A program made the position numbers and the translations under genes. Shown here in pieces: positions 19,108 to 59,600 of a DNA stretch of 64,000 bases. A model generated the notes under the pieces. The model made no database searches, had not been told where the DNA came from, and saw only the letters and a list, made by a program, of their open reading frames with translations. This stretch comes from Malacoraja senta. Its lineage: Eukaryota. How positions within the stretch are numbered: position 1 is the stretch's first letter; every line of letters starts with the position of its first letter. The DNA lies in assembly GCA_038087875.1 (NCBI GenBank), contig CM075987.1, positions 20,896,001 through 20,960,000 on the forward strand, written 5' to 3'.

Positions 19108-22100
19108 ACACCGCAGGCCGCCCCCTCCCCACTCATGCTAGCGTGTGTGTGTGTGTGTGTGTGTGACGCCGCAGGCCGCCCCCTCCCCCCGCAACCGCTC
19201 GTAAGGGGGGGGGGGGGGGGAAGGGACCAACGGGTCCCACTTGGTCTAGTTAACTTTTAAAAATATTCCTTTGTTTTAATCCTTCATGACTTCAGGATGG
19301 TCTGAGCACTTCGTGAAAATACTTTCCGAAGTAAAGTCACGTTGCGAGGCGGGAAATTCACAGCAAGTCCCACAAAAAGTAAGTAATTTATGCTGAACGT
19401 TTAACATAGCAAACATTCTCAAATCTCAGGACTTTACAGAAAATAAAGTACTTAAAAAAAAAATTTATAGGCACTGCTGTCATGCAGGAAACAGGGGAGA
19501 GAATTAGTCCCACGGCAACCTCCCAGAAATAGCAGTGTGATCATGCGTAGAGAATCTGTTTTCAATGATGTTGGTTGAGGGCTGACCATTGGGTTTGGAG
19601 AGAACACACATTTCTTCAAATACTGCCATGGGAAATTTGCAGTCTGCCTGAGCAAACAGAGTCATGGTTTAAAATCTCATCCACACGGTTCAATTCATCA
19701 AACACCTGTCTTTGGATTTTAACTGCACTAACATCTATAACTGGTTGAAACAAATGATTTTCAGTTGCTGTCTGCACTTAATCCTGTTCTGTGTCAACAC
19801 AGAAAATCCCTGCGATACACAGTCTGTTAATTCGGTTAAGTTGCACTCTTAACAGGGTAATGCCTTTCTCCCTTCCCACCCAAATATTAGGACTGAATGC
19901 ACATCAACAGAAAATATCATTTAAGTCTTAAATGCACAGTGGCGCAGCAGTTAAGTTGTTGCCTTACAGCGCTAGGGACCCTGGCTCAATCCTGATTACA
20001 GGTGCTGTCTGTTCGGAGTTTGTACTTTCTCCCTATGACAGCGTGAGTTTTCTCTGGATTTCTCCCCCCGTTTCTTCCCACATTTCAAAGACGTGAAGGT
20101 TTGTCGGTTTTCTACATTTTCATTGATCTCCATTCCCTCGTCCTTACACTTCCTTATCTATGTACCTCCCACTCCCTTGACATCAGTCTGAAGAAGGGTC
20201 TCAACCCAAAACATCACCCATTCCTTCTCTCCAGAGATACTGCCTGTCCCGCTGAGTTACTCCAGCATTTTGTGTCAATCTTCCAGGTTTCTAGGTTAAT
20301 TGACTTCGAACTAGCGTACAAGTGAGCGTTGGTCGGCATGGACTCAGAGGGTCGAAGGGCCTGTTTCCACGCTGTATCTCTAAACTAAACTGCCTGACAT
20401 GTGGGCGACGATTGGGCTCTCAAGATCAGAACACCAAACTTAAACATGTCTTTTCTGCATTTAAACAAGGGAGACTGGGTGGGCCCCATAGAGGCAGAGC
20501 GGGTCAAATCGGTACTCTTCAATGGGTAATAAAAGGTTCTGATATACTAATCATTGTAGTGGTCAAATACATCAGTGTTCTCTGACGAGTGGTTGACCTA
20601 TACGTGGGACCATGCATTAGGTCATCTGAGTCACAGTAAATTGTGGGTTCTAGTCCCAACTCCAGAAACTTTAGCCCTAACCTGGCAGTCATTGAGGATC
20701 AGCTTTCACATGAAACATTAAAACTAGCTCTTATTCTCTCTTTCCACAGAAGACAGCTGGAGAGTGCCCCAGATTGTCCTGGCAAGTTATCCTCAAACAA
20801 CATCACTGAAAAGAACAAAACACAAATTACTGGAAGAACTTAGCCAGTCAGGCAGCATCTTCGGAGTGAATGGGCAGACAATGTTTTGGGATGGGACCCT
20901 TCTTCACACTTAAAATATCGCCTGTCCATTCCCTCCCCAGATGCTGCCTGACCCACTGAGTTCCTCCAGCATCGTGTTTTGCTCCAGATTCCAGCATCTG
21001 CAGTTTCTTGCGTCTCCATCATTGAAATGAAAATGATCTGACCACTTGTCTGCATTTTGTGGCTTAAAAGTCCATCTTGAAATTTTGGAAGGTGAAACGT
21101 CATGCAAGGTTTTACTTTAAGTCGTCCACATCCTTTTGTACAGAATTGGATTTGATGTGCTTTCCACATGAACTTCCCCAGACTAGTATGTGGGCAGATG
21201 CAGCACTGCACCTCACAGGTCAAAGCTTATGGGAGGTTGGTGGAATAGTATCAGAGAAAGCTACAATGGAACACAAAACAAGGGCAGGAATGCTGCAGTG
21301 TAACTCAGCTGTTTTCTTCAATCACTTGTATTGTTCCATCAATGAGGAGGCGGAGAACACATGTGATCTGGCTCCTGAAAATCAGCAGGATGTAAAATTA
21401 GTAAAACAGTGATGGAAGGCACTCGAGAATGTTGGCAGGAACTGCAGATGCTGGTTTAAACCAAAGATAGATACAAAAAGCTGGAGTAACTCAGCAGGTC
21501 AGACAGTCTGAAGAAGGGTCTGACCTGAAACGTCACTTATGGAAGGCACTTGAGTCAGCGTTGGGTCATGTTACTGCCAAGGGTATTAAGAGGCATTCAT
21601 TTGTAGCTTTCAAAATGAAGCTGGTTAACTATCCAAAATAATTTGTGGTGGGGTGGATTTGGGATGGTGGGGCGGGGAGTAATTTGTTAAAATTGCACTT
21701 ACATGAATCTACTGTGGATTCAATGGGCCGAATGCTCTTCTTCCGTGCAGTAACTATACCATAACTTTGTATCCGAGCAACTGTGTCGCAGGTTATTTTT
21801 TCTGGGCCGCAGAGGATAAATCATTTCAGTGATTACTTTGGATGAAACTCTATTGTTTAACATAAGCGAGGTTGCTATTTGGAAGCCTGCTCAGCTCTGA
21901 AATGGCCACAGGGGGGAGCAAGGACAGGTTTGGCAAGGTGGGACCAGAGGCTTTGTGCGGCACCAATACTTACAATCTGAGGACTGTGGAGCACTTGCCC
22001 AGCATCATGATGACAAAGTTGCGGTAAGAGATGGTCTCACTGCTGCCACCCGTAGCTTCTGCAATCATCTTCTTCACTTCCAGGTGAGTCTTGGGAACTC

Positions 22101-25100
22101 CAAGTTTCTCCAGCATCTGCTTCAGGCTCATCAAGTCTGGTGGATAGGAGGAGCAGGAAAAAATAATCAGATTTCTTGCTAAGAAAGGCAATGACATGGG
22201 CTGTTTTATTTTCTTCATTGCCTGCTGTCCCCTTTGAATGCTACACGAACCATCTCTCCACACAAGTCCTTGCGTTATGTCAAAAGGGAGCAATCACACC
22301 AAGTGCTCAGTATTTACAATGTCCTCACGGCCCTCGATAACAGCACATTGAACTGGCTAAAGCACCTGGAGGGCATTACATAACCTCTGCTGCCTCATAC
22401 GCAAGATGAAGAAGAAGAAGAATGGCTTCTGTCTGTTGTGCCTGATTCTTTGACCCTATCCTGACACTATCAAGAGGGACAACTACGTTGGACTATTGAA
22501 GAAGATGCACATTGGTGCGGAGATGTTGATTTGCTTGGGCTCTTGTCTGGCAACTGAATCTTCAGAACGGTACTCATTAATGAATGTAATACCATAAGGA
22601 GGAGGAACACAGGTCAGGATCCCTCGAATGTGCACTGCCATTCTACAAGATCATGGCTCATCTACCGCCCCATCTTGTCCTTGTAACCCTTAATTCCTTT
22701 ACTGTTGGAAGATCAAAAATCTAGCTGTTTGGCAAGCTTTTGGTCACCTTTCCTAACATCTCCTCATGTTATTAGTGTCAACATTTTTGCCTTAAAACAT
22801 TCCTGTAAAATGCAATAGAGCATATTATGACTTTGAAGATGCAATATAAATTGTTGTTAGGTTTCACCTTAAAAAATGTTGATAGTGGAGAGTTTGCTGA
22901 GTGAAGCTTGTTTTTGTGAAGGCAAAATGACCTTCGGGTTCTCCTCGAAACATTATCTGTAGAACAAGGGAGCTGGGACCAGATTATGTCTGAAAAGCGC
23001 ACTTCACCGAGATTAAATCAGTGGTTTTTTACTCTCGTGACTTTGAAATAGTGAATAACAGGAGTGGTGTTGGCAGAAGATAGAGTCATGTTACATTCAA
23101 AACCATTTCACTTTCATATATACGATTATTAGTTTGATATTGTGGCCAAAATGCCAGAACTCACCAATGTCACCTTGGTCATTGAGATCAAATTCCATAT
23201 ACTTCTCTGCAATAAAAAAAAAGTGAGTTATTGTGAATCTCAATGTACTCACGAGGTCTTAAGAAACAAGCACAATAACAACACTGAAATAGCACTTTTA
23301 CATGAATAAAATAACCTAAAGGATCATAGAAATGACAATAAAAAAGTTAATAAAAACTGCGTGTGGAGGAGGTACAACGGCAAATAATCAAAATATTGAC
23401 GTCTTGATGAATGTCTTAAACAAGAAAGGAGGAGCGAAGGGAGAGAGCGAGGCAGACAGTGGAGGGCAAGCGAGGGCAAGCAAGGGCAATTAGAAATGTA
23501 TTGTTTCTGTATTAAAAGCAGCAGAAAGAAATGATTACTTCTTTCATTTGGAAGATTGTTTTGAAAGTAACAAAGTAGAAAGGTGACACTGTGGAAGAGT
23601 CGACACATGCCAGCACTTTCCTGGCTGTCATGGAAGCTGCAGTGCAGAATGGGTTTGAAAAGCCATTTTCAAGTCTGTCTCTTTAAAGCTACCCTTCAGG
23701 TTGTCATCGTTGGTTGACCATTGAGTTTGATGATGTCAGTTGTGCAGTCTTCGTTGGTAAGCCTTAGAGTGGCTGGCAAGACCAGGCCTGAAGGCACACT
23801 CTGGGGGACAGTGGGGGGACAGGAAAGATGCTGCAGCAGATACGTCTTGCGTTCTGCGGCTCCAGTGACTCAGTGCCAAAGGCTTCCTTCAAAGTGGATA
23901 CAGGACCTTTTGGTCAAAGCACATCAGCCTGTTCTGTCCTGGACACAAGGCCCCCCCTCTCATGCAGGGATGATGCTGTGTTTGACGCTGCCTTTGGTAC
24001 AATCCATGTATCACTTTTTTTTTAGTTATCTGGAACAAGAACTCATAAAGGAGCTGGCGTAGCATACGGAAGCTGTCCAGGCGGATTATGAGGCCTGTCC
24101 AGAGCAACTGTCCCAACCCAGGCGACTACTTGTGTGCTTGCCACAGAAGCAGATGTGCAATGACATATTACAATCGCTCCACATCTTTATTCCTACAGCA
24201 ACATTTCTTACTTTAACTATGATATCTCTACACTGAAAATGGCTTGATTGGAATCTTGCATTGTCTTTCCGCTGACTGGTTTAGCATGCAGCAAAAGCTT
24301 TTCACTGTACCTCGGTACACGTGACAATATGAGGAAAGATTGAAAAGACTAGGCTTATATTCACTGGAGTTTAGAAGGATGAGGGGGAATCTTATAGAAA
24401 CATATAAAATTATAAAAGGACTGGACAGGCTAGATGCAGGAAAAATGTTCCCAATGTTGGGCGAGTCCAGAACCAGGGGCCACAGTCTTAGAATAAAGGG
24501 GAGGTCATTTAAGAATGAGGTGAGAAAAAATGTTTTCACCCAGAGAGTTGTGAATTTATGGAATTCCCTGCCACAGAGGGCAGTGGAGGCCAAATCACTG
24601 GATGGATTTGAGAGTTAGATAGAGCTCTAGGGGCTAGTGGAGTCAAGGGATATGGGGAGAAGGCAGGCACGGGTTATTGATAGGGGACGATCAGCCATGA
24701 TCACAATGAATGGCGGTGCTGGCTCGAAGGGCCGAATGGCCTCTTCCTGCACCTATTTTCTATGTTTCTCTATGTTTCTAATAAACTAAATCTGAAACTG
24801 GATCATGGTCTTGATGCTGTCCAGATCTTCCAAGTTTGTCACCCTGTCCTGCCATTCGATGCTTTATGTGGAAAGACTCCAGCTGTTTGATGTGTTTCCT
24901 GCAACGCATCGAGGTCTCACACACACAAAGGCTTGTGAGGACAACTGCTTTGATCTTGGTTGACAGCTTGTTGTTTCTGTGGTTCATCATGCAAGAGCAG
25001 AGACAGACAAGCGTCTGCCTGACCTCGCTGTTCCCACGTCAGGACAGCCATCAGAAGAGCTAACATTTCCCTGGCACTTGAACTGATCTGTCTTTAGCCT

Positions 25101-31100: not shown

Positions 31101-34100
31101 TGAATACCAGGTTCCCAGGCAGAATGAGAAATACGGTTTACATCAAAAAATGGATAAATATTTGAAGGAGAATAAAAACTGCAAGAATGTGGGGCATGAG
31201 CCTTGTAACAGGACTAACCAGATCACTCTATCAAAGAAATGGTGCAGCTTGAGGCTTGCAACATCAGGCCTCCTCATAAACCTTGGGCTGTTTAAGGAAG
31301 GGAGTGAGTGGTTAGTTTGGTACCTGGGAAAAGCAAGTTGAATGAGTCATTTTTTGTTTGAGTTTAAGAAGACAATCGACACAGGATAAACCGTTATGCA
31401 AGTACTTTTACAATCGGCAATAGGTGCAGGAGTAGGCCATTCGGCCCTTCGAGCCAGCACCGCCATTCATTGTGATCATGGCTGATCATCCACAATCAGT
31501 ACCCCGTTCCTTTTCCCCATATCCCCTGACTCCACTATCTTTAAGAGCTCGATCCAACTCTCTCTTGAAAGCATACAGAGAATTGGCCTCCACTGCCTTC
31601 TGAGGCAGAGAATTCCACAGATTTACAACCCTCTGTGTGAAAAGGTTTTTCCTCATCTCCGTTCTAAATTGCTTACCCCTTATTCGTTAACTGTGGCCCC
31701 TGGTTCTGGACTCCTCCAACATCGGGAACATGTTTCCTGCGTCTACCATGTCCAAACCCTTAATAATCTTATATGTTTCAATGAGATTCCCTCTCATCCT
31801 TCTAAATTTAAGAGTATAGAAGCCCAGCCGCTCCATTCTATCAACATATGACAGTCCCGCCATCCCGGGAATTGTGAGGATGAAGATCGTGTGGGTGAAG
31901 ATTGAGTCTTCATGGTTTCCCTCTTAAAGATAAACTTAAACAAAGTAAATTCTCAAAAAATTCGTCAGCTGTGGCTTAAAAAGAGCACCTTAAAGTAAAG
32001 GGGTGCTGAAGTAAATAGGATTCATGGATCCATATTGATTGATTGATTGATTGAAAGATGCAGCATGGAGATGTCACCTATCTTTTTTTCTCCAGGGATG
32101 CCGCCTGACCCTCTGTGTTACTCCAGCACTTCGTGTCTATCCATGGAAACACGCCCTTTGGCCCAACAAATCCACTCTGACCATCGATCACATGTCCTCT
32201 CTAGTTCTATGTTATCCCACTTTCATATCCACTCCCTACACATGGAGAGCAATTTACAGAGGCCAATTAACCTACAAACCTGCACATCTATGGAAGGTGG
32301 GAGGAAACCGGAGCACCCAGAGGCAACTCACCCGCTCACAGAGAGAAGTTGCAAGCTCCACACAGATGTACCCGGGGTCAGGATCAAATCCAGTCTCTGG
32401 CGCTATGAGCTCTACCATCTGTGCCACTGGAAGATCCAGCATGAATCTCCCCACCAGTAATTTTGCCAGCATTCTGCCAGTGCCACACTGGGAGAGTTGG
32501 CCTAGATTGTGTGCCTCTACCTGGAGCAGGGAGTTGAAACTTACTGCTCCTGACTGTCCTGAAAGATAACTCAGAATCTATGATGTGTGCTTTGCACTAT
32601 CTTCATCACAGGACTGTGCTCAGCCCTGTGACTAAATCCAGGGCTGAGTACAGGCAGACTGGCCGCCTGTCTTAGGTTGAAGGCTCTGAGAAGAGAGAGC
32701 CTGCCATCTGCTGATTAGGACCTAGCTCTGGTCTTAAACTGACCTGCGCTGCATTACATTTCAGAATATTCCAGCTTGAAACCCAACGCTCAGTGAAACC
32801 GACCCAGGGTTTCCATGATGTTCATATAACACAGTTCCTAAAGTAACCAAATTAAACAGCCTTGTTGCTGTGGGAATGAATCCACTTGTCCTGATGATTT
32901 GGCTGCAATTTTAACATCCATCCCAGATTTGGTAACACTCTAAAGACTATTAAGCAAGACTTTTTTATTTATCATTTTGATCCTCAGGATAACAAAGATA
33001 TTGCAATAAGGTGTAATAGGTGCTATAATTTATTAAACCAATGTCGCAGTGATAGATCTACTTTCCGGAAATTGTATTCTTGGCGGCTAACATTTGTCAC
33101 AGCCGACACCCAAGAAAATATTAAGATCCAGAGTATTTAAGAGTAACAAAAAGCAACAAGGAATACCCAGGGCAAATGTAGGTGAAAACTGTTCATAATT
33201 ATTACTACCAATAATTATATCGGCATAAGTAAACAATTCAGTGTTATTTTGTAACAATACTGGTAACTCCAGCCCTTTTTTATTTGTTGAAGGGATATGG
33301 GGTTAACAGACTGAGCCAGCACTCAATTCCACTTCCCTAGTTGTCCTTGAGGAGGTGGTGGTGAGCTGCCCACTTGAACCTCATCAGTCCTTGAGGTGTG
33401 GGTACAGCCACAATGCTGTTAGGGAGAGAGTACCAGGCTTTTGATCCATCTATGTGGAGGGAATAGCCATATATTTCCAAGTCAAGGTGGTGTGCGGTTT
33501 GGGGGGGCATCTTCCAGGTTGTGGTGTCCCATTGGTTTTACTGCTCTTGCCCTTCTAAATGGTAGAGGTGGTGGGTTTGGAAGATGCTAAGGAGTCTTGG
33601 CGAATTGCTGCAGTACATCCTTCTTCTTGCGTACGGCGTGCACAGCCTAAAGTTGTAGGACAACTTGTTCTATTTGATCTTATTTGATTGTGCACGCCGG
33701 GTTGATTGCATTCGTCGCAACAGGGCAGACCACCTGAAGGTTGCAATCTCCCACCCCGCAGTACATCCTGTAGAAGGTACACACCGCAGCTACTGTGAAT
33801 GAATAATGGCCAAACGCAAATTGGATGAACAGCACCTCATGTTTCGCTTGAGCAGCTTACAACCCAGCTGTATTAAAATTCATTTCTCTAACTTCAAGTA
33901 ATGCTTGCATCCCCTCTCTCCATCCCTCCCCCACCCTAGTCGTGGTAGTAGTTTCACTGTCATCCTGTCAAGTTTCATTGTCTGTATAACTCATTATTAC
34001 CTAGCACGCAGCCAACAATGATGGGCTCCGCCTTGCCTTGATCATTGTTACTTTTTGCATATCTTTCATTCATTTGTTCTATATCTCTCTATATCACCCT

Positions 34101-43100: not shown

Positions 43101-45416
43101 GCTAGTCATATCTTTCCATCTCCACCCCTCTCCACCTTCTGCAGAGACTGCTCCCTCCACAACTCCTTGGCCCACTGATCCCAACCCAAGTCATCCCCTC
43201 GCCAGGTACTTTTCCCCTGCAACCGCAGGAGATGCAACACCTGTCCCTATACCTCCTCTCTTGCCTCCATCCAGGGCCCTAGCAGTCCTTCTAGGTGGGA
43301 CAGAGGACATGCACCTCCTCTAACCTTATCTTCTGCATGCACTGTTCCCAATATGGGCTCCTGCACATTGGCGACACCAAATGTAGACTCGGCGACTGTT
43401 TCGCTGAACATTTGTGCTTGGTCCGCCAAGGCAGACTGCATCTCCTGGTTGCAATCCATTTTAACTCCCCTCCCCAATCCCACGCGGACCTTTCTGTCCT
43501 GGGCCATCTCCATTGCCAGAGTAAGGCCACACACAAACTGGAGCCGCACATAACAGCACTTCATATTCCACTTGGGTAGCTTACAACCCAATGGTCGTTG
43601 AATTCACCCACCAATTTTAGGTGACCTCTAACTAAGCCCCTTGCCCCTTTCTTCCCAACCCCCCCTCCCTTCCATGTGTGCTTTCTTTCCTCCACCAGAC
43701 CACCCCCCCCCCCACTACTACTTATTTTTCCCAGGCTTCATAATCCACAACTTTTCACTCCCGCATTTCTTATCTCTGGCCTTCATTCCAACCATCTGTC
43801 AAATGAAAACCCTCGTCCGTGTAAACCTATAACCTGGCTCTCCCCCTTTATCAGCTCGCCCCCCCCCCCTACAATCAGTCTGAAGAAGGGTCTCAACCCA
43901 AAACATCACCAGTCCATGTTCTCCGGAGATGCTGCCTGACCTCCTGAGTTACTGCAGCACTTTGCATCCTTCCGTCCATGACCAGACCTGTGCTGTAGTG
44001 TTCCCAGCAATGCACATCGACAATGGTTGGTGCAGCTGGTCGCTTATCATTCAATGAACGACCTCTTTAGGGGTCTGCATGAAACTTGATCTTCCAGTTG
44101 TCTGTGAACAAATGTTGCCCACTCATACATTCCAGGGCCCGGCTGACGGAGCAGCTGAAGCTTGCTGCACACCACAAAGGCTGTAATGGGAAAGGCCACT
44201 GGTACACATCCCTCCCCACCTTGTACACCAAGTGCCTGCAAAGCCTCTCTGACAATTTAACCATGGGGCATACGTAAAGGACAAAGATTATCAAGCTGAT
44301 CAAGTGTAAGCATTCTTAGTGCGTGAAGTGATCTGACTTGGACCGTGAGTGGCAACATGCAAAGAATATTTGAAAATGTTAGGAACACTGTAAATAGATC
44401 GATGGTAAACATGTATTGTCTTTCTGCTGACTGGATAGCACGCAACAAAACGCTTTTCACTGTACACGTGACAATCAACGAAACTGGGGTGGAAGATTGC
44501 AACCTTCACGTGGTCCGCCCTGTTTCGACTAATGCAATCAACTCGACGTGCACAAACGGGAGATCAAACACTGGGAACAAGTTGTCCAACAACTTTAGGC
44601 TGTGCACGCCAAACGAAAGAGGAAGAAGAACTAAACTGAGTGTATGCTGCAGAAGGAGAAAGTGATGTGAAAGTAGGGTGTGTTTATTGAACGGGAACTT
44701 GACTAAAAATAATGAAATGGAAGAGAATGTGGGTAAAGTTCACAACATCTCCGGGAGGAGTCACAGCACTTAGGACATGCCCGGGATCTGACAGGGACTG
44801 AGCGGGAAATCGGCTTGAAGGCTTTAGTCCAGACACGCGGGAGAGCGCAGGGGAAAGGAGAAGAGGCGGAGAATTGGAAATAGGACCGAATGTTTAAAAA
44901 AAACAGTATACAATGTAAAATAGAGACGAAGGGAGGGTGGCTAACGAGCATAAAGTAAAGCGGAATTAAGCGTGGAACAGAAAGGAAGCGAGTAAACAAA
45001 CACTGGGAACATTGTTTAATAAAGTGCGGGAAGGAACTGCAGCAGCTGCTTCACACCGAAGATAGACACAAAATGCTGGAGACTGACTGAGGTCTGTGGG
45101 GTCTCGACCCGGAACGTCACCCATTCCTTCTCCCCGAAGATGCCGACTGGCCCGCTGAGTTCCTCCAAACATCTTGTGTCTATCTTCTGTTGTTTAAGAA
45201 AGGGCGGGCGGGGGGCAGGGGGCAGGGGTCGGCTGCTCACCTTGTTCACACCAGCCAAGCGCTCCTCCTGCTGCGCTCTCAGGACACCGAACATTTTGCC
45301 ACCTTAAAAGTGTGAACGGAAGAAACAGAATTCAGGCCACAGTCGGAGAGGAACCGCTCCCTCCCCCCCGGCCGGAGTGGAAGTTTCTTACCCTGCGCCT
45401 GTTGTCCCGAAGGCAT
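15078..45416 (-). CDS. AIF1L: Allograft inflammatory factor 1-like (EF-hand actin-binding protein), complete: 6 exons, 447 nt, 148 aa
   Basis: [90 protein letters not shown]...[19 protein letters not shown]...RDISSLP*; phases consistent; lies between LAMC3 and NUP214. Confidence 0.96.
15360..15695 (-). mobile_element. Penelope-like terminal-repeat fragment
   Basis: Homologous to 16862-17200. Confidence 0.65.
16862..17428 (-). mobile_element. Penelope-like element 3' fragment
   Basis: Homologous to 43380-43965. Confidence 0.7.
18305..18612 (+). mobile_element. tRNA-derived SINE (HE1/V-SINE-like)
   Basis: B box GGTTCGATCC, V-domain ggtttcctcccacactccaaagac, CR1-like tail. Confidence 0.8.
18940..19249 (+). 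mobile_element. Helitron-like 3' end with (GT)n-containing minisatellite
   Basis: Hairpin GGGACC-AACG-GGTCCC then CTAG|T at 19246-19250; 4 units of (GT)n-GACRCCGCAGGCCGCCCCCTCCCC. Confidence 0.65.
19938..20390 (+). mobile_element. HE1-like SINE interrupted by a Penelope-derived repeat (~20105-20283)
   Basis: A box TGGCGCAGCAG; SINE tail after the insert. Confidence 0.75.
21428..21538. mobile_element. Short inverted Penelope-derived repeat ending just after a hammerhead core
   Basis: TSD ATGGAAGGCACT(C/T)GAG at 21412-21427 and 21539-21554. Confidence 0.7.
21974..22136 (-). CDS. AIF1L: AIF1L coding exon 5
   Basis: ccaccag|ACTTGATG...AGATT|gtaagt; 163 nt. Confidence 0.95.
23165..23206 (-). 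CDS. AIF1L: AIF1L coding exon 4
   Basis: ttgcag|AGAAGTATATGGAATTTGAT...ATTG|gtgagt; 42 nt; EF-hand loop DLNDQGDID. Confidence 0.94.
23740..25110 (-). mobile_element. Old RTE-clade LINE fragment, interrupted by a CR1 3' end (24330-24780)
   Basis: [14 protein letters not shown]...KQLESFH and [22 protein letters not shown] resemble RTE C-terminal motifs. Confidence 0.55.
24330..24780 (+). mobile_element. CR1 3' end
   Basis: [22 protein letters not shown]; (TCTATGTT)-like tail. Confidence 0.85.
26961..27171. mobile_element. Palindromic Penelope-derived repeat inserted in CR1
   Basis: TSD AGCATG(C/G)ATAGAA at 26948-26960 and 27172-27184. Confidence 0.75.
27767..28161 (+). mobile_element. 5'-truncated RTE LINE with C-terminal C2H2 zinc finger
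   Basis: [24 protein letters not shown]...[21 protein letters not shown]; (ACG)n tail; TSD AGAATG at 27761-27766 and 28162-28167. Confidence 0.85.
28492..28558 (-). CDS. AIF1L: AIF1L coding exon 3
   Basis: tattccag|GAATTTCTG...TTCAAAA|gtaagt; 67 nt. Confidence 0.94.
28912..29490 (+). mobile_element. HE1-like SINE interrupted by a minus-strand CR1 3' end (~29093-29385)
   Basis: A/B boxes, V-domain, (CTAAA)n tail. Confidence 0.75.
31420..31872 (-). mobile_element. CR1 3' end
   Basis: Homologous to 5570-6200. Confidence 0.8.
32130..32430 (-). mobile_element. Older HE1/V-SINE-like copy
   Basis: Reverse-complement V-domain gggaggaaaccggagcacccagagg. Confidence 0.6.
33622..33757 (-). mobile_element. 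~140-nt short retroposon headed by an HDV-like ribozyme (copy B)
   Basis: 12-bp TSD GCAGTACATCCT at 33610-33621 and 33758-33769; same 5' end as copy A. Confidence 0.82.
33704..33757 (-). ncRNA. Minimal HDV-like ribozyme motif (copy B, sense to AIF1L)
   Basis: GGGGTGG-GA-GATTGCA-ACC-TTCAGGT-GGT-CTGCCCT-GTTGCGA-CGAA-TGCAATC. Confidence 0.65.
33805..34268 (+). mobile_element. Penelope-like 3' fragment
   Basis: [19 protein letters not shown] followed by the terminal repeat. Confidence 0.7.
39860..40170 (+). mobile_element. CR1 3' end
   Basis: [14 protein letters not shown]...FLMQRV. Confidence 0.7.
43000..43965 (+). mobile_element. Penelope-like element 3' half with GIY-YIG endonuclease remnant
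   Basis: [35 protein letters not shown]...HFN; ends in the CTGAAGAAGGGTCTC repeat. Confidence 0.8.
44486..44539 (+). ncRNA. Minimal HDV-like self-cleaving ribozyme motif
   Basis: P1 GGGGTGG/CCGCCCT (G1.U), P2 GATTGCA/TGCAATC, P3 ACC/GGT, L3 TTCACGT, J4/2 CTAA. Confidence 0.75.
44486..44628 (+). mobile_element. ~140-nt short retroposon headed by an HDV-like ribozyme, (GAA)n tail (copy A)
   Basis: TSD AAC(G/T)AAACT at 44477-44485 and 44629-44637; homologous to 33622-33757. Confidence 0.8.
45241..45302 (-). CDS. AIF1L: AIF1L coding exon 2
   Basis: cttttaag|GTGGCAAA...AACAAG|gtgagc; 62 nt. Confidence 0.93.
45392..45416 (-). CDS. AIF1L: AIF1L coding exon 1
   Basis: ATG CCT TCG GGA CAA CAG GCG CAG G|gtaaga; 25 nt. 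Confidence 0.85.
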
Positions 45417-53600: not shown

Positions 53601-56600
53601 CAATTTGCTCAATGTCCTACTTTTCTAGACCAGTTAGAAAGTAATTACATTATTTGCAAGGTAGACAAAAATGCTGGAGAAACTCAGCGGGTGAGGCAGA
53701 ATCTATAGGCGAAGGAATAGGCGACGTTTCGGGTCGAGACCCTTCTTCGTCAGTCTGAAGAAGGGTCTCGACCCGAAACGTCACCTATTCCCTCGCTCCA
53801 TAGACGCTGCCTCACCCGCTGAGTTTCTCCAGCATTTTTGTCTACCTTCGATTTTTCCAGCATCTGCAGTCCTTTCTTAAACACATTATTTGCAAGGACG
53901 ACAGGCAAGAAAGAGACACAATACCTTCCAAGGTTTTCAACAAAGAGAGCCCTGCTTGCTTTATCTGTAGCGCTTGGTGCAGTGACACATTTGCAGCGGC
54001 CTCGACAGATTTGACGCGTCTCAGGAACTAAATGCAGAGAAACAATCAGTTATTCAACAATAATCGCTGAATACGACTTCTTCCCCATGTTAGCTGTCGA
54101 ATATCAATAGAGCCAACTGCGTACATTCATGCAGCAGAGAAATGGGCCCTTTGACACAATGAGTCTGCATGGACTGCCAAGCACCCATTTACAATATTCT
54201 TACACTAATGGAAACAATAGAGACGGTAGATGCTGTAACCTTGAACAAAATTATAAAGTGCTGAAGGATCTCAGTGAGTTAGGGCAGCATCTGGGGAGGA
54301 AATGGACTGGCAGTGCTTCAAATTACACTAATCCTATTTCAGGCAGGCAGTGACTAGTGGGGTACCGCAAGGCTCGGTGCTGGGACCGCAGCTATTTACA
54401 ATATACATCAATGATTTAGATGAAGGGATTCAAAATAACATTAGCAAATTTGCAGATGACACAAAGCTGGGTGGCAGTGTGAACTGTGAGGAGGATGCTA
54501 TGAGAATGCAGGGTGACTTGGACAGACAATTGACAATAGACAATAGGTGCAGGAGGAGGCCATTCGGCCCTTCGAGCCAGCACTGCCATTCAATGTGATC
54601 ATGGCTGATCATCCCCAATCAGTACCCCGTTCCTGCCTTCTCCCCATATCCCCTGACTCCGCTATTTTTAAGAGCCCTATCTAGCTCTCTCTTGAAAGCA
54701 TCCAGAGGACCTGCCTCCACCGCCCTCTGAGTGAGTGGGCAGATGCATGGCAGGTGCAGTTTAATGTGGATAAATGTGAGGTTATCCACTTTGGTTTCAA
54801 AAACAGGAAGGCAGATTATTATCTAAATGGTGTCAAGTTGGGAAAAGCGGAAGTACAAAGAGATCTGGGTTTCGTTGTTCATCAGTCAATGAAAGTAAGC
54901 ATGCAGGAACAGCAGGCAGTGAAGAAAGCGAATGGCATGTTGGCCTTCAAGAGGAGCTCAACCACTTTTTTGCCCGCTTCGAGAGAGGTCCGAATGAAAG
55001 AACCTCTCTCCAACTGGACCCTGCTGACCAGCCACTTACCCTCCAGTTAGAGGAGGTAAAGCGGGCCCTGAGAACTGTTAATGCTAGTAAGGCTGCTGGC
55101 CCGGATGAGATCCCAGGCAGGGTGCTCCGGGACTGTGCTCACCAGCTCGCTGGGGTATTGACAGACATTTTTAACCTTTCCCTAAAACACTCCTCCGTGC
55201 CAACGTGCCTGAAAACCACCACTATCGTCCCGGTGCCCAAGCAGACAAACATCAACTCCCTCAATGACTACAGGCCCGTTGCTCTTACATCTGTAGTCTC
55301 CAAGTGCTTTGAAAGGCTGGTCCTAGGTCACCTTAAATTATCTCTCCCCCCCCCTCACTCGACCCACACCAGTATGCATATAGGGCTAATAGATCTACAG
55401 AGGATGCCATAAACACTGTCCTCCATGCTGCACAACAACACCTAGAGGAGAATGGGTCATATGTCAGGATGCTTTTTGTTGATTACAGCTCAGCTTTTAA
55501 CACAATCATACCCAGCAAGCTGATCACAAAAATGCTAGACCTTGGCCTCAGCAGTCAACTGTGTCAGTGGATATTGGACTTTCTCAGTGAACGCCCACAG
55601 ACGGTGAGACTTGGACCCTACACCTCGACATCCCTGACCCTCAGCACAGGAGCACCGCAGGGCTGTGTGCTCAGTCCGCTCCTCTACGCCCTATATACAC
55701 ATGACTGCTTGCCCCATCACCCCGCAAATAGGATCATAAAATTTGCGGACGATACAACCGTGGTGGGGCTCATCTCAAATGGGAACGAGGACGCCTATAG
55801 AGAGGAGGTGCACAGACTTTCTGAGTGGTGTGCTCACAACAATCTCTCTCTGAACACTAAAAAGACAAAGGAGATCATTACTGATTTCAGGCGGCATAGA
55901 GCGGAGCTCAGGCCACTGGAGATAGGGGGCGAGGAGGTGGAGAGGGTGCCTAGTTTTAAATTTCTGGGGATCAACATCAGTGAGGATCTTAAATGGTCTG
56001 TGAACTCTGCTGTAGTTGTAAAAAAGGCGCAACAGAGACTTTACTTCCTCAGAACACTGAGGAAGGTCCATCTGTCTGCTAAACTGCTGGAGTCTTTCTA
56101 CCGCTGTTCGGTAGAAAGCATACTGACTTACTGCATAACTGCCTGGTTTGGGAACTGTTCAGCAGCTGACAGAGCAGCTCTCCAGAGGGTGATAAAAACT
56201 GCCCAGGGTATCATTGGACTCCCCCTGCCCCCTCTGGAGGACATTTACCCCTCCAGGTGCCGCAGCAGGACCTGTAATATTGTGAAAGACATTACCCATC
56301 CTTGTCACCACCTTTTCACACTGCTGCCCTCAGGAAAAAGGTACAGGTCGCTAAAGTCACGCACTGCCAGACTCAAGAACAGCTTTTATCCATCAGCAAT
56401 CTTGGAACTGAACTCTGTCTCAAGGAGGGGGGGGGGGGTGGGGGACAGTGTTAATTTATGTAAATGTGAATCCATGGGTGGATTTGGGGAGGGAGGGAGT
56501 GTAAAAAGTTTGTGTATGTGAATGTTTGAAGTTCTTTTAAATGGAGAGACACAGTAATCTCGTTGTATGTGACACATGCAATGACAATAAAGCATTCTGA

Positions 56601-59600
56601 TTCTGATTCTGATTCTGAAAACAAGTGGAGTTGAGTATAGGGGCAAAGAGGTCCTCCTGCAGTTGTATAGGGCCCTAGTGAGACCACACCTGGAGTATTG
56701 TGTGCAGTTTTGGTCCCCTAATTTGAGGAAGGACATTCTTGCTATTACGGGAGTGCAGCATAGGTTTACAAGGTTAATTCCCGGGATAGCGGGACTGTCA
56801 TATACTGAGAGAATGGAGCGGCTGGGCTTGTATACTCTGGAGTTTAGAAGGATGAGAGGATATCTTATTGAAACATATAAGATTATTAAGGGTTTGGACA
56901 CACTAGAGGCAGGAAACATGTTTCCGATGTTGGGGGAGTCCATAACCAGAGGCCACAGTTTAAGAATAAGGGGTAAGCCATTTAGAACGGAGACGAGAAA
57001 ACACTTTTTCACACAGAGAGTTGTGAGTCTGTGGAATTCACTGCCTCAGAGGGCGGTGGATGCCGGTTCTCTGATACTTTCAAGAGAGAGCTAGATAGGG
57101 CTCTTACAGATAGCAGAGTCAGGGGATATGGGCAGAAGGCTGGGATGGGGTACTGATTGGGGATGATCAGCCATGATCACATTGAATGGCGGTGCTGGCT
57201 CGAAGGGCCGAATGGCCTACTCCTGCACCTATTGTCTATATTCCCACTTTTCCACAACACCCCCCCAGACTCTACCATTCACCTATGCAGTAGGGGCAAT
57301 TTACAGTGACCAATTAGTCTTTGACCCTGCTCCTCTGTGGAAAGTGGGAGGAGAACCACACAGTCACAGGGAGAACATGCAAACTCCACACAAACAGCAG
57401 GGATGGCTACAGCTGTGCCACCATGTTAACACAGGCGGGTGGCATGGTGGCACAGCGGTGGAGTTGCTGCCTTACAGCGCTCGCAACGCCGGAGACCCGG
57501 GTTTGATCCTGACTACGGGTGCTGTCTGTACGGAGTTTGTACGTTCTCCTCGTGACCACGAGGGTTTTCTCCGAGATGTACGGGTTCTCCCACACTCCAA
57601 AGACGTACAGGTATGTAGTTAATTGGCTTGGTGTATGTGTAAATTGTCCCTAGTGTGTGTAGGATAGTCTTAATGTGCGGGGATCGCTGGTCGGTGCGGA
57701 CTCGTTGGGCCGAAGCGCCTGTTTCCACACTGTATCTCTAAAACCTAAAACTAAAATAGGCCTCTCTTGACCCAGAATAAAAAAGGAAAAAAAAGAGAAA
57801 AGAAAAATGGTTTGCTTTTCTAAATTGCCTTCTGTGACATTTCAAGGGCAATGAAGCAGCTTGAAGTCACAGATGCAGCTTGACTAAGCCCTGTGTCCAA
57901 CACTGAATGTCCACGCCATGAGACACTGCAAAGAAGAGAACACAGCACACGCTCCAATCTCACCTGCTCATACGTTTGTTTGGCTTCTAACCCATTGGTC
58001 AAGTTCGTCACCAGAGGTTCTATCTCCATGAAGAGTTCCTCGATCTGCTGATCCTTGGACCAAAGTGCATTCTCCAGATTCTCAATCTCTGCGGTCAAGT
58101 TGTCCCAGCTCTTTCAGACAAACAAAAGCCCAATCAGAGAGAGACTCTTTCCTCACGATGAGTATAATTTCACTGGAACAGAGACCAGTGAATGTATAGG
58201 TTGCAGGCGCAACACTGCAAAAGCATCTTGGATGTTTAACGGAAGCATTGACATGAAAACAGCTCACAGGAGAGTTATCAAACATTAACAGAAGCCACAT
58301 AAGGATATTAGGGCAGATGACCAAAAACATAGGAGGAGGAGAAAGAGGAAGAGCATTTGAGGGAGAACTCAGAGAATTGTCCTAGAATTCGGGGGACCTT
58401 GGCTGCTGATGGCAAGGGATAACGGGAGACATAAACATGTTCCCAAAACAATGAACCCTGCAGGAATATAGGGTGGGGGCAATTCGTCTGCAAATACAGG
58501 CAGTCACCAGAGAAAACGTGGCTATTAGTAACAGGCCTGTCGAACACATTTGACCTTTGCAGGGATATGACGTGGATTGATTCAATCATGGCGTGCTTTG
58601 AAAGGTCAGATAATGACCAGTGGCAGGGTCACATGTCAAGTTTGTAAAGAAGTTATATTGAATGTCTGGACGTTAGACAGGTAATGCTCATTAATGGCAT
58701 GTAATTAAATGACACATCACTTGTAACCATGCTTGGAAGTTGTGATTTTTTAAGCATTCCTGAACTCTACTTGGGTGGCTTTCTTGATGTGAACATGGTC
58801 ACATAAACCAGTGAACAAAGGAGCTCGAGTTTGGGATGATTACTATGGCTGAGCTCAAACATAGAGCAGCAACATCCACAGCAAAACGTTGTGCCTCCTC
58901 AGAGTATTGGCCACAGCAAATTTCTGAGGAACGGTCTTAAAGCAACTGACCAGAGTCTACAACCCTGAAGATAGACACAGAAAGCTGGAGTAACTCAGCG
59001 AGTCAGACAGCATCTCCGAAGAAAAGGAATAGGTGACATTTTGGGCCGAGACCCTTCAGACTGAGTCTGAGTCTTGAGTCTGAAGAAGGGTCTCGACCCG
59101 AAATGTTACCTATTCCTTTTCTCCAGAGGTGCTGTCTGACCCACTGAGTTACTCCAGCTTTCTGTGTCTATCTTCGGTTTAAACCAGCATCTGTAGTTCC
59201 ATCCTACACATTTCGTCAACAATCCTGATACACATCCAGGCAGATTGAAGTAACATCACAGGAGATGTGCTAACAGCAGATGGAAGAGACAGCACACTGA
59301 CCTCCAGCTTTATCTCAGTGTTATTCAGCAGTTGAATTGAGCTTGAACCTCTAGCTTGTTGAATTTTGATGTATTGTCTCTTTGCTTCCTTCAGCACCTC
59401 GCTCGCCTCCAACTCCAGCTCTTCTATTTTGTTCTGGAACACCTGCAGTCTGCAGAGTTAAAGAGCAAACACAAATGTGCACTTTAATGCTTTGAGTTAC
59501 CTGAAAGACAACTCTTTTTAGAACAGTAAAAAGGGAATTAAAGAGAAATACTTCCTTGCCCTGTCCCAAAATCTTCCCCTATGACTGTCCCCAATGCAAG

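What the first reader, a model, noticed from the sequence alone, without database searches (positions are those of the whole stretch)
44486..44628. A ~140-nt retroposon whose 5' end is a minimal HDV-like ribozyme
Seen: the first 54 nt fit the HDV double-pseudoknot order exactly. P1 is GGGGTGG(44486-92)/CCGCCCT(44515-21) with a G1.U wobble; P2 is GATTGCA/TGCAATC; P3 is ACC/GGT; L3 is TTCACGT; J4/2 is CTAA with the candidate catalytic C at 44529. P4 is reduced to GTTTCGA. A second TSD-flanked copy (33622-33757) starts at the same G, directly against its TSD. I see no Pol III A/B boxes and no ORF; the tail is (GAA)n. Established: HDV-like ribozymes process the 5' ends of R2, RTE and L1Tc transcripts, and R2 SIDE elements are short ribozyme-plus-3'-end derivatives. 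Inference: a promoterless non-autonomous element that cuts itself out of host read-through transcripts and is mobilised by an RTE-type LINE. I do not know of it being described in cartilaginous fish, but could not search.
Basis: partly seen in the sequence, partly recalled or inferred. Interest (0 to 1): 0.9.

Follow-up and report, generated by a model that had tools for sequence, protein, structure and literature searches.

The report
Short retroposon headed by minimal HDV-like ribozyme
A 139-base mobile element present in about ten thousand copies in this vertebrate genome starts exactly at the cleavage site of a stripped-down HDV-type self-cutting RNA fold, which most likely trims the element out of host transcripts before it is copied back into DNA.

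Summary
Window 44486-44628 (+) and 33621-33757 (-) are two copies of a ~139-nt non-LTR retroposon with target-site duplications and a (GAA)n tail.

- **Abundance:** the 21-nt ribozyme core occurs 10,287 times in the 1.94-Gb assembly. The exact 54-mer occurs 355 times.
- **5' end:** all 60 full-length copies examined begin GGGGTGG. In 38 of 57 distinct loci a perfect 7-15 bp duplication abuts G1.
- **Fold:** the first 54 nt satisfy every sequence-level HDV-like feature. These are P1 with a G1.U36 wobble, P2, P3, U20/C22/A23/G25 in L3, a C22-G37 P1.1 pair and a CNRA J4/2.
- **P4:** it is reduced to U-[UUCG]-A.
- **Chance:** my descriptor hit only these two copies in the window, against 2 hits in 100 shuffles.

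Weak points:
- Rfam scores are far below threshold (20.6 bits against 50).
- There is no covariation, because the family is too uniform.
- No cleavage data could be obtained.
- No autonomous LINE sharing either end was found, so the RTE partner is unsupported.

Verdict: a real, young element and a probable (~0.7) minimal HDV-like ribozyme. It is a new variant of a known kind.

The parts
44486..44539 (+). Ribozyme module of copy A (54 nt). P1 44486-92 with 44515-21; J1/2 44493-94; P2 44495-501 with 44533-39; P3 44502-04 with 44512-14; L3 44505-11; G37 (P1.1 partner of C22 = 44507) at 44522; mini-P4 U-[UUCG]-A 44523-28; J4/2 CUAA 44529-32, with the candidate catalytic C at 44529. The predicted cleavage site is immediately 5' of G44486.
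   Evidence: It is identical to 355 exact genomic copies.
44540..44574 (+). Variable linker. GACGTGCAC at 44545-53 can pair with GTGCACGCC at 44602-10. This copy carries a private CTGG insertion at 44571-74.
44575..44614 (+). Conserved 3' module. Hairpin AAGTTGT-CCA-ACAACTT at 44579-95, TAG at 44596-98, then GCTGTGCACGCC. This is the presumed recognition structure for the reverse transcriptase.
   Evidence: the fold of the subfamily B 3' part has z = -3.99 (0 of 200 shuffles as stable) and of subfamily A z = -1.54 (14 of 200); only the loop base 44588 is listed as variable.
44615..44630 (+). Degenerate (GAA)n tail.
   Evidence: Family copies carry (GAA)3 to (GAA)25+.
44478..44485 (+). 5' copy of a weak target-site duplication of copy A (ACGAAACT). 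The 3' copy, ACTAAACT, is at 44630-37 and has one mismatch.
33621..33757 (-). Copy B, of the older subfamily. Ribozyme at 33704-33757, with L3 UUCAGGU (a change absent from the subfamily majority), P4 loop UGCG and J4/2 CGAA.
33610..33620 (.). Target-site duplication of copy B (GCAGTACATCC), repeated at 33758-33768 where it abuts G1.

Best explanation
This is a ~139-nt non-autonomous non-LTR retroposon built of two conserved modules joined by a variable linker.

Proposed mechanism:
- The 5' module (nt 1-54) folds as a minimal, P4-less HDV-like ribozyme with a CPEB3-type core.
- When a copy is transcribed as part of a longer host transcript, the ribozyme cleaves immediately 5' of G1. The released RNA begins exactly with the element (inferred).
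- The 3' module, a long-range stem plus hairpin followed by (GAA)n, is bound by a LINE reverse transcriptase supplied in trans.
- That enzyme primes on a nicked target. Reverse transcription yields 7-15 bp target-site duplications, occasional 5' truncation and 1-3 extra bases at the 5' junction (shown at the DNA level).
- The LINE partner is unidentified.
For: Retroposon status:
- The 21-nt core occurs 10,287 times with up to 2 mismatches (reversed-pattern control 0 and 1). The exact 54-mer occurs 355 times.
- There are two young subfamilies, with about 1,000 first-look candidates each.
- All 60 full-length copies examined start GGGGTGG.
- The 57 distinct loci divide as follows:
  - 38: a perfect 7-15 bp duplication (median 12) abuts G1.
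  - 6: the duplication abuts G1 with one mismatch.
  - 9: 1-3 extra bases lie between the duplication and G1.
  - 4: no duplication found.
- In a sample anchored on the 3' end, 18 of 29 copies start at nt 1, 2 start at nt 2-3, and 9 are truncated at scattered places.

Ribozyme fit:
- The descriptor hits only the two copies in the window, against 2 hits in 100 shuffles.
- Two Rfam HDV models each align end to end over the same helices. RF00094 matches positions 1-89 of 89 at 20.6 bits. RF02682 matches 1-74 of 74 at 16 bits.
- Their E-values are 0.5 and 0.81, and these already include the factor of 4,227 families.
- The element has the residues that the CPEB3 NMR paper names in the catalytic core: U20, C22, A23 and G25.
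- It shares the other features that paper describes: a P1.1 of one G-C plus a U-U, and a 4-nt J4/2 that begins with the active-site C (PMC4836649, passages).

Constraint:
- The majority sequences of subfamilies A and B differ at 3 of 54 ribozyme columns. These are J1/2, a G-C to G.U change, and the N of CNRA.
- They differ at 3 of 47 columns in the 3' module, and at 7 of 34 linker columns including a 2-nt indel.
- In contigs of four runs carrying four organism labels, 3 variable places are listed in the ribozyme. All three are structure-neutral: U.G to U-A, the last base of the loop, and the N of CNRA.
- The same table lists 20 variable places in the linker and 1 in the 3' module.

Precedent:
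- P4-less HDV-like ribozymes are reported to self-cleave in vitro (preprint 10.1101/2023.06.13.544163, passages).
- HDV-like ribozymes head R2, R2 SIDEs, L1Tc/NARTc, baggins and RTE elements (PMC6765202, passages).
Against: - Nothing reaches Rfam's gathering score. The best hit is 20.6 bits against 50. Other copies give no hit at E <= 10 when 9.2 kb is searched.
- There is no compensatory change in any of the 19 pairs across 24 distinct sequences. Shuffles equal the observed values, so covariation is uninformative.
- The nested fold of the 54-mer is no more stable than shuffles (-12.6 kcal/mol, z = -0.04). That program cannot score the pseudoknot.
- P4 is absent and J1/2 is only 2 nt. In drz-Agam-2-1, spacers of 0-1 nt abolished or nearly abolished cleavage (PMC4908430, passages).
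- Conservation of the 5' module would equally fit an internal promoter.
- A precise 5' end is also what a transcription start gives.
- No RNA evidence: every run is held as contigs.
- The variant table is not exhaustive. It omits places 44493 and 44516, which differ between subfamilies in this genome.
- The 60 full-length copies were chosen by best full-length match, which biases them towards intact 5' ends.
Confidence: 0.7

Rival explanations
1. The first ~54 nt are an internal promoter, for Pol III or Pol II. The uniform 5' end is then a transcription start, and the HDV-like fit is coincidental and catalytically dead.
For: - A precise 5' end and a conserved 5' module are what any SINE promoter gives.
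- The element has no run of four or more T, so it is compatible with Pol III.
- The Rfam similarity is weak.
- There is no covariation.
Against: - No tRNA gene.
- No B-box within one mismatch in either copy (consensus recalled).
- No similarity to any small-RNA family at E <= 10 apart from the two HDV models.
- The chance of a full descriptor match starting exactly at nt 1 is of the order of 1e-7 per position.
- The changes that distinguish subfamilies in the module are all structure-neutral.
Confidence: 0.13
2. The module has a dual function, as in L1Tc Pr77: the same 54 nt act both as an internal promoter at the DNA level and as an HDV-like ribozyme at the RNA level.
For: - A precedent exists in L1Tc/NARTc (abstract of PMC3383444 in the listing; passages of PMC8256844).
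- About 10,000 dispersed copies and very young subfamilies would be easier to sustain with some autonomous transcription.
Against: - No promoter motif was recognised.
- Nothing in the data requires a promoter.
Confidence: 0.1
3. The pseudoknotted 5' module is kept mainly as a protein-binding structure for the mobilising reverse transcriptase, as the R2 protein binds the 5' pseudoknot of R2 RNA. It does not cleave efficiently.
For: - The R2 protein binds a pseudoknot within its ribozyme region (PMC6765202, passages).
- The weak P1.1 and the missing P4 suggest that catalysis is slow at best.
Against: This does not explain why the element begins exactly at the first nucleotide of P1 in all full-length copies.
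Confidence: 0.05

Closest known systems
R2 SIDEs (short internally deleted elements of R2, Drosophila)
   Same: They are short and non-coding. A 5' HDV-like ribozyme defines the 5' end by cleavage of a co-transcript. The 3' end serves the reverse transcriptase in trans (abstract of PMC3414825 in the listing; PMC6765202 passages).
   Different: SIDEs share both ends with a resident R2 and insert in 28S rDNA. This element is dispersed with 7-15 bp duplications. No autonomous element sharing either end was found. Its ribozyme lacks P4.
NARTc / L1Tc of Trypanosoma cruzi (L1TcRz within Pr77)
   Same: A dispersed non-autonomous element carries an HDV-like ribozyme in its first nucleotides, releasing it from longer transcripts (listing).
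   Different: NARTc shares its 77-nt head with L1Tc, and that head also acts as a promoter. The host is a protist with polycistronic transcription. The ribozyme is full-size.
Mammalian CPEB3 ribozyme
   Same: The core numbering and residues are the same: L3 starts at nt 20, with U20, C22, A23 and G25. P1.1 is one G-C plus a U-U. J4/2 is 4 nt and starts with the catalytic C (PMC4836649 passages). From my recollection only, P1 also begins GGGG and L3 has the identical seven letters.
   Different: CPEB3 is a single-copy intronic ribozyme with a full P4 hairpin. The Rfam CPEB3 model gave no hit here at E <= 10.
Minimal (P4-less) HDV-like ribozymes: drz-Mtgn and theta ribozymes
   Same: P4 is reduced to a few nucleotides, and they are reported active in vitro (preprint 10.1101/2023.06.13.544163, passages).
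   Different: They are known from metagenomes and gut phages, next to tRNAs. That preprint calls the origin and function of the minimal forms undetermined. Here the host is a vertebrate genome and the role is retroposon 5' processing.
RTE-clade LINEs with 5' HDV-like ribozymes and microsatellite tails (Rex3, HmRTE-e01)
   Same: They are promoterless elements with a 5' HDV-like ribozyme. Their tails contain GAA: Rex3 ends GCG(GAA)2(GATG)n and HmRTE-e01 ends (GAA)2GA, each after a very short 3' UTR.
   Different: The link is by analogy only.

Membership tests
HDV-like self-cleaving ribozymes | Nested double pseudoknot in the order P1-J1/2-P2-P3-L3-P3'-P1'-P1.1-(P4)-J4/2-P2' (PMC4908430) | tested here: met
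   The descriptor matches both window copies. Across 24 distinct copies, 99.6% of 455 cells are paired, against 31-47% when partners are slid by 1-3 columns. The structure was derived from these sequences, so the slide control is generous.
HDV-like self-cleaving ribozymes | Catalytic C as the first nucleotide of J4/2, followed by N-R-A | tested here: met
   C44 is present in 23 of 24 distinct sequences, and A46 and A47 in 24 of 24. Position 45 varies T/G/C/A.
HDV-like self-cleaving ribozymes | Cleavage site at the first nucleotide of P1, with a G1.U closing wobble | tested here: inconclusive
   G1.U36 is present in 24 of 24 sequences, and the element's DNA 5' end coincides with G1. Cleavage itself was not observed.
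HDV-like self-cleaving ribozymes | P1.1 between L3 and the nucleotides after P1', and the U20.G25 pair at the base of P3 | tested here: met
   C22-G37 forms in 23 of 24 sequences, with U-G in the other. U20 is present in 24 of 24, and G25 is nearly invariant. The layout is the same as described for CPEB3.
HDV-like self-cleaving ribozymes | P4 hairpin | tested here: not met
   Only U38-A43 closing UUCG. This places the ribozyme with the minimal variants.
HDV-like self-cleaving ribozymes | Rfam gathering score for an HDV family | tested here: not met
   20.6 bits against 50 for RF00094, and 16 against 44 for RF02682.
HDV-like self-cleaving ribozymes | Covariation supporting the helices | tested here: inconclusive
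   0 compensatory pairs and 7 one-sided pair-keeping changes. Shuffles equal the observed values.
HDV-like self-cleaving ribozymes | Mg2+-dependent self-scission abolished by C-to-U at the active site | not testable with these tools
   This needs an in vitro assay.
Non-LTR (LINE-dependent) non-autonomous retroposon | Variable target-site duplications, a 3' simple-repeat tail, 5' truncated copies, high copy number and no ORF | tested here: met
Classical Pol III SINE (tRNA-, 5S- or 7SL-derived head) | Head derived from a small RNA, with A/B boxes | tested here: not met
   ARAGORN finds nothing. There is no B-box within one mismatch in either copy (consensus recalled). No small-RNA family scores at E <= 10. 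The A box was not scanned.
SIDE-type internal-deletion derivative of a resident LINE | Both termini shared with an autonomous element in the same genome | tested here: not met
   Patterns that demand non-element sequence next to the ribozyme or next to the 3' module gave 0, 1, 96, 31 and 77 hits. None formed a recurrent foreign family. The 29 loci read were all copies of the element. The test is limited to near-identical termini.
RTE-mobilised element | 3' end homologous to an RTE in the same genome | not tested
   No RTE sequence was obtained. Non-L1 LINE families were seen only as coordinates and could not be fetched.

The most novel reading that the evidence does not exclude
This is the first eukaryotic home and function for P4-less minimal HDV-like ribozymes. 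A promoterless vertebrate SINE class defines its 5' end by self-cleavage instead of by a Pol III start, and it has amplified to about 10,000 copies in several organisms. Its core matches the CPEB3 ribozyme residue for residue at the named catalytic positions. The single-copy mammalian CPEB3 ribozyme could therefore be a domesticated descendant of such an ancient vertebrate ribozyme-headed retroposon.
Probability: 0.1. Interest if true: 0.85.

Novelty: new variant of a known kind. Interest (0 to 1): 0.62.

Why it matters
- HDV-like ribozymes at the 5' end of non-LTR elements are established in insects, trypanosomes and some other invertebrates. In the passages and abstracts I read, the non-autonomous forms described (R2 SIDEs and NARTc) share their ribozyme head with a resident autonomous element.
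- A free-standing, highly amplified, SINE-sized element in a vertebrate would show that self-cleavage can replace an internal Pol III promoter as the way a SINE fixes its 5' end.
- It would give minimal P4-less HDV-like ribozymes a eukaryotic host and a role. A 2023 preprint still called the origin and function of the minimal forms undetermined.
- The family supplies about 10,000 natural variants of a 54-nt ribozyme for mutational analysis.
- It offers a concrete candidate lineage for the origin of the CPEB3 ribozyme.

Tried and rejected
LINE partner:
- Ribozyme 3' part followed by four non-element bases: 0 hits.
- Four non-element bases followed by the 30-nt hairpin block, exact: only the window copy.
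- The same with a free loop base and up to 2 mismatches: 77 heterogeneous hits.
- Four non-element bases followed by the 26-nt terminus, up to 2 mismatches: 96 hits. Of 30 loci fetched, 29 were located. All were internally deleted, 5'-truncated or variant copies of the element.
- An altered P2 next to the ribozyme core, up to 1 mismatch: 31 heterogeneous hits.
- The RVT_1 search returned L1-like LINEs. L093 has a 1,271-aa ORF2 with APE, RT and zf-RVT domains and an A-rich tail. L094 is a broken L1-like element.
- The window's own LINE is CR1-like with an (ATTCTG)4 tail.
- Other endonuclease-bearing LINE families (open frames of 1,277 aa and of about 1,000-1,070 aa) could not be read.
- Only 2 (GAA)n runs of four or more units outside the element occur in about 250 kb of held sequence.

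RNA 5' ends: all 24 runs offered are stored as contigs, which cannot show RNA starts. Contig breaks at 44485/44486 are expected at any repeat boundary. I therefore draw no expression or cleavage conclusion.

Other negative or uninformative results:
- Thermodynamics: the nested fold of the 54-mer is not unusual (z = -0.04). Full-length folds have z = -1.31 and +0.17.
- Covariation: uninformative.
- Rfam RF00094 on the whole genome scored only 84 of 38,783 candidates. It returned one unrelated full-size ribozyme.
- Earlier findings of this scan: three look-ups, nothing held.
- Target-site preference: Y at -1 in 29 of 38 sites and R at +1 in 33 of 38. The R bias is partly an artefact of overlap between the tail and the duplication.
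- The idea that the 3' module is the end of an ORF (a frame ending in TAG 22 nt before the tail) is left as an idea only. The frame is not kept in subfamily B.

Literature searches for this element:
- 'HDV-like' + ribozyme + shark found 2 papers, neither relevant.
- Ribozyme + SINE + cartilaginous + retrotransposon found 1 paper, on R2.
- 'HDV-like' + ribozyme + retrotransposon + fish + vertebrates found 17 papers. None describes it, judged from titles and abstracts.
- Ruminski et al. 2011 is not held and was not read.
- Dfam and Repbase could not be consulted.


Full report
**1. The observation**

Copy A (44486-44628, +) reads:
- P1: GGGGTGG, pairing with CCGCCCT
- J1/2: AA
- P2: GATTGCA, pairing with TGCAATC
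- P3: ACC, pairing with GGT
- L3: TTCACGT
- P4 region: GTTTCGA
- J4/2: CTAA

Copy B lies on the minus strand at 33621-33757 and is 83.8% identical to copy A. It starts at the same G, directly against an 11-bp target-site duplication. Copy A's own duplication is poor: 8 bp with one mismatch.

I wrote a permissive HDV-like descriptor and ran it over both strands of the window. It hit exactly these two copies and nothing else. In 100 dinucleotide shuffles of the window it hit twice in all, both with a shorter P2. That rate still predicts hundreds of chance matches in a 1.94-Gb genome. The fit alone is therefore not proof. The telling point is that the fit starts at nucleotide 1 of an element whose 5' end is fixed independently.

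**2. A real, abundant and young retroposon**

The window lies in an assembly of 1.94 Gb. Copy counts are:
- The 21-nt core of the ribozyme occurs 10,287 times with up to two mismatches. The reversed control pattern occurs 0 and 1 times.
- The exact 54-mer occurs 355 times.
- Searches with copy A and copy B each gave about 1,000 first-look candidates. The 40 scored in each were nearly all full-length, at 94-97% identity.

I read 58 further full-length loci plus the two window copies, 60 in all.
- All 60 begin GGGGTGG.
- The 57 loci with distinct flanks divide as follows:
  - 38: a perfect 7-15 bp duplication (median 12) abuts G1. One of these, L038, is by eye better read as a duplication plus one extra base.
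  - 6: the duplication abuts G1 with one mismatch.
  - 9: 1-3 extra bases lie between the duplication and G1. This is the kind of addition that reverse transcriptases make at the end of a template.
  - 4: no duplication was found.

These copies were selected as best full-length matches, which favours intact 5' ends. A second sample was anchored on the 3' end and is itself enriched for damaged copies. There, 18 of 29 copies start at nt 1, 2 start at nt 2-3, and 9 are truncated at scattered places, some down to the last ~27 nt with their own duplications. Tails run from (GAA)3 to more than 25 units. This is the signature of target-primed reverse transcription by a LINE enzyme.

**3. Anatomy**

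The majority sequences of the two large subfamilies differ as follows:

| Module | Columns that differ | Nature of the differences |
|---|---|---|
| Ribozyme | 3 of 54 | A/G in J1/2; G6-C31 against G6.U31; the N of CNRA |
| 3' module | 3 of 47 | one of the three is the hairpin loop base |
| Linker | 7 of 34 | includes a 2-nt indel |

Contigs of four public runs under four coded organism labels also hold the family. Their flanks before 44485/44486 are unrelated to one another. The variant table for these runs lists:
- three variable places in the ribozyme: U5.G32 to U5-A32, the last base of the UUCG loop, and the N of CNRA;
- twenty variable places, and all the listed indels, in the linker;
- one variable place in the 3' module, the hairpin loop.

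That table is not exhaustive. It omits two places that differ between subfamilies in this genome.

The 3' part folds into a 9-bp long-range stem (GGCGTGCAC with GTGCACGCC) topped by a 7-bp hairpin. For subfamily B this fold has z = -3.99, with 0 of 200 shuffles as stable. For subfamily A it is weaker, with z = -1.54 and 14 of 200 shuffles as stable. The element is therefore two conserved modules joined by a free linker.

**4. Is the 5' module an HDV-like ribozyme?**

For:
- The helix order is correct. The element has the 7-bp P1 with G1.U36, the 3-bp P3, the 7-nt L3 and the 4-nt J4/2 that starts with C and ends AA.
- The numbering coincides with CPEB3. U20, C22, A23 and G25 are the residues named in the CPEB3 NMR study.
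- That study also describes P1.1 as one G-C plus a U-U. C22-G37 and U21/U38 would give the same here (PMC4836649, passages).
- Two Rfam HDV models align end to end over the same helices, deleting only P4. Their E-values of 0.5 and 0.81 already carry the factor of 4,227 families.
- P4-less HDV-like ribozymes are reported to cleave in vitro (preprint, passages).

Against:
- No Rfam match reaches a gathering score. Other copies score nothing at E <= 10 in a 9.2-kb search.
- There is no compensatory change in 19 pairs across 24 distinct sequences, because the family is too uniform.
- The nested fold is no better than shuffles.
- J1/2 is short.
- There are no RNA data.

Neither conservation of the module nor a sharp 5' end separates a ribozyme from an internal promoter. 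What speaks against a classical promoter is the following:
- No tRNA gene was found.
- No B-box is present within one mismatch (consensus recalled).
- No small-RNA family matches.

I put the ribozyme reading at about 0.7.

**5. Mechanism**

Steps shown at the DNA level:
- Dispersed insertion with duplications.
- Tail-first copying with truncation.
- 5' ends at G1.

Steps inferred:
- Copies are transcribed as passengers of host transcripts.
- The ribozyme cleaves 5' of G1 and stays on the product.
- A LINE enzyme recognises the 3' stem-hairpin and the (GAA)n tail.

**6. The partner**

I could not find it. Five pattern searches were built to detect either terminus joined to foreign sequence. They returned only deleted, truncated or variant copies of the element. 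In the laid contigs the 3' module is not deeper than the 5' module. That gives no sign of an abundant LINE sharing the 3' end.

The LINEs I could read are two L1-like elements, with no (GAA)n tail, and one CR1-like element with an (ATTCTG)n tail. Other LINE families were seen only as coordinates and could not be read.

RTE-clade elements do carry very short 3' UTRs and tails containing GAA, and they are known hosts of HDV-like ribozymes. A SIDE-like origin from a resident element with the same ends is not supported in this assembly.

**7. Comparison and novelty**

HDV-like ribozymes at the head of non-LTR elements and of their non-autonomous derivatives are established. A review states that some non-autonomous SINEs use hammerhead or HDV-like ribozymes (PMC6765202, passages). 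The kind is therefore known. Four things differ here:
- the P4-less minimal form, so far described from metagenomes and phages;
- a vertebrate host;
- SINE-like size and copy number;
- no detectable parent LINE.

Three literature searches aimed at this element found nothing on it. Dfam, Repbase and Ruminski et al. 2011 could not be consulted. I file it as a new variant of a known kind.

Noticed in passing
L092:1501-1583 (-), = G000:C1:320228970-320229052: A canonical full-size HDV-like ribozyme with a long P4. It scores 43.8 bits on RF00094 (gathering score 50), E = 2.4e-05 in a 301-nt search, end to end. It is unrelated in sequence to the retroposon. The 1.5 kb downstream is AT-rich with no obvious ORF, so it does not look like the head of an R2 or RTE.
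   Followed up: partly
window 54780-56618 (+): A CR1-like LINE fragment with RVT_1 plus the ALKBH8_N-type domain. It ends in (ATTCTG)4 at 56594-56618.
   Followed up: partly
window 56620-57235 (+); also flanks in L003, L024, L027, L046/L047, L085: The 3' end of a very abundant repeat (...GATCAGCCATGATCACATTGAATGGCGGTGCTGG...GGCCGAATGGCCTA...TATTGTCTAT). Two independent insertions of the retroposon (L003 and L046/L047) sit at the same position of this repeat, with duplications ending in TTGAATGGCG / TTGAACGGCG. This hints at a preferred target.
   Followed up: no
window 57440-57740 (+): A stretch that looks like a tRNA-derived SINE head, with GGGTTTGATCC resembling a B-box. It is a different and conventional SINE family in the same window.
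   Followed up: no
window 22393-22421 (+): CATACGCAAGAT followed by (GAA)5. It matches the last 11 nt of the retroposon's subfamily B terminus plus its tail, so it may be an extremely 5'-truncated insertion. It lies near a host exon at 21970-22293 (-) whose translation looks like an EF-hand protein; the resemblance to AIF1 is recalled, not tested.
   Followed up: partly
L093:1993-7793 (-), = G000:C4692: A young L1-like LINE. ORF2 is 1,271 aa with APE, RT and zf-RVT domains, and there is a 341-aa ORF1 with coiled-coil-type hits. The 3' end is A-rich. Many genomic copies have the same intact 1,271-aa frame and identical scores, so it is probably active.
   Followed up: partly
L008, L011, L019, L028, L038, L041, L050, L052, L053, L056 (5' junctions): One to three extra bases of varying identity lie between the target-site duplication and G1. 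They are consistent with untemplated addition when reverse transcription reaches the RNA 5' end.
   Followed up: partly
L086 and L088, and the 'TGTTAGG' hits: A further subfamily has a different sequence in place of the 3' hairpin (...GATGTAGTGCTTTGTTAG). It keeps the TAG and the 26-nt terminus, so the hairpin sequence is not strictly required.
   Followed up: no
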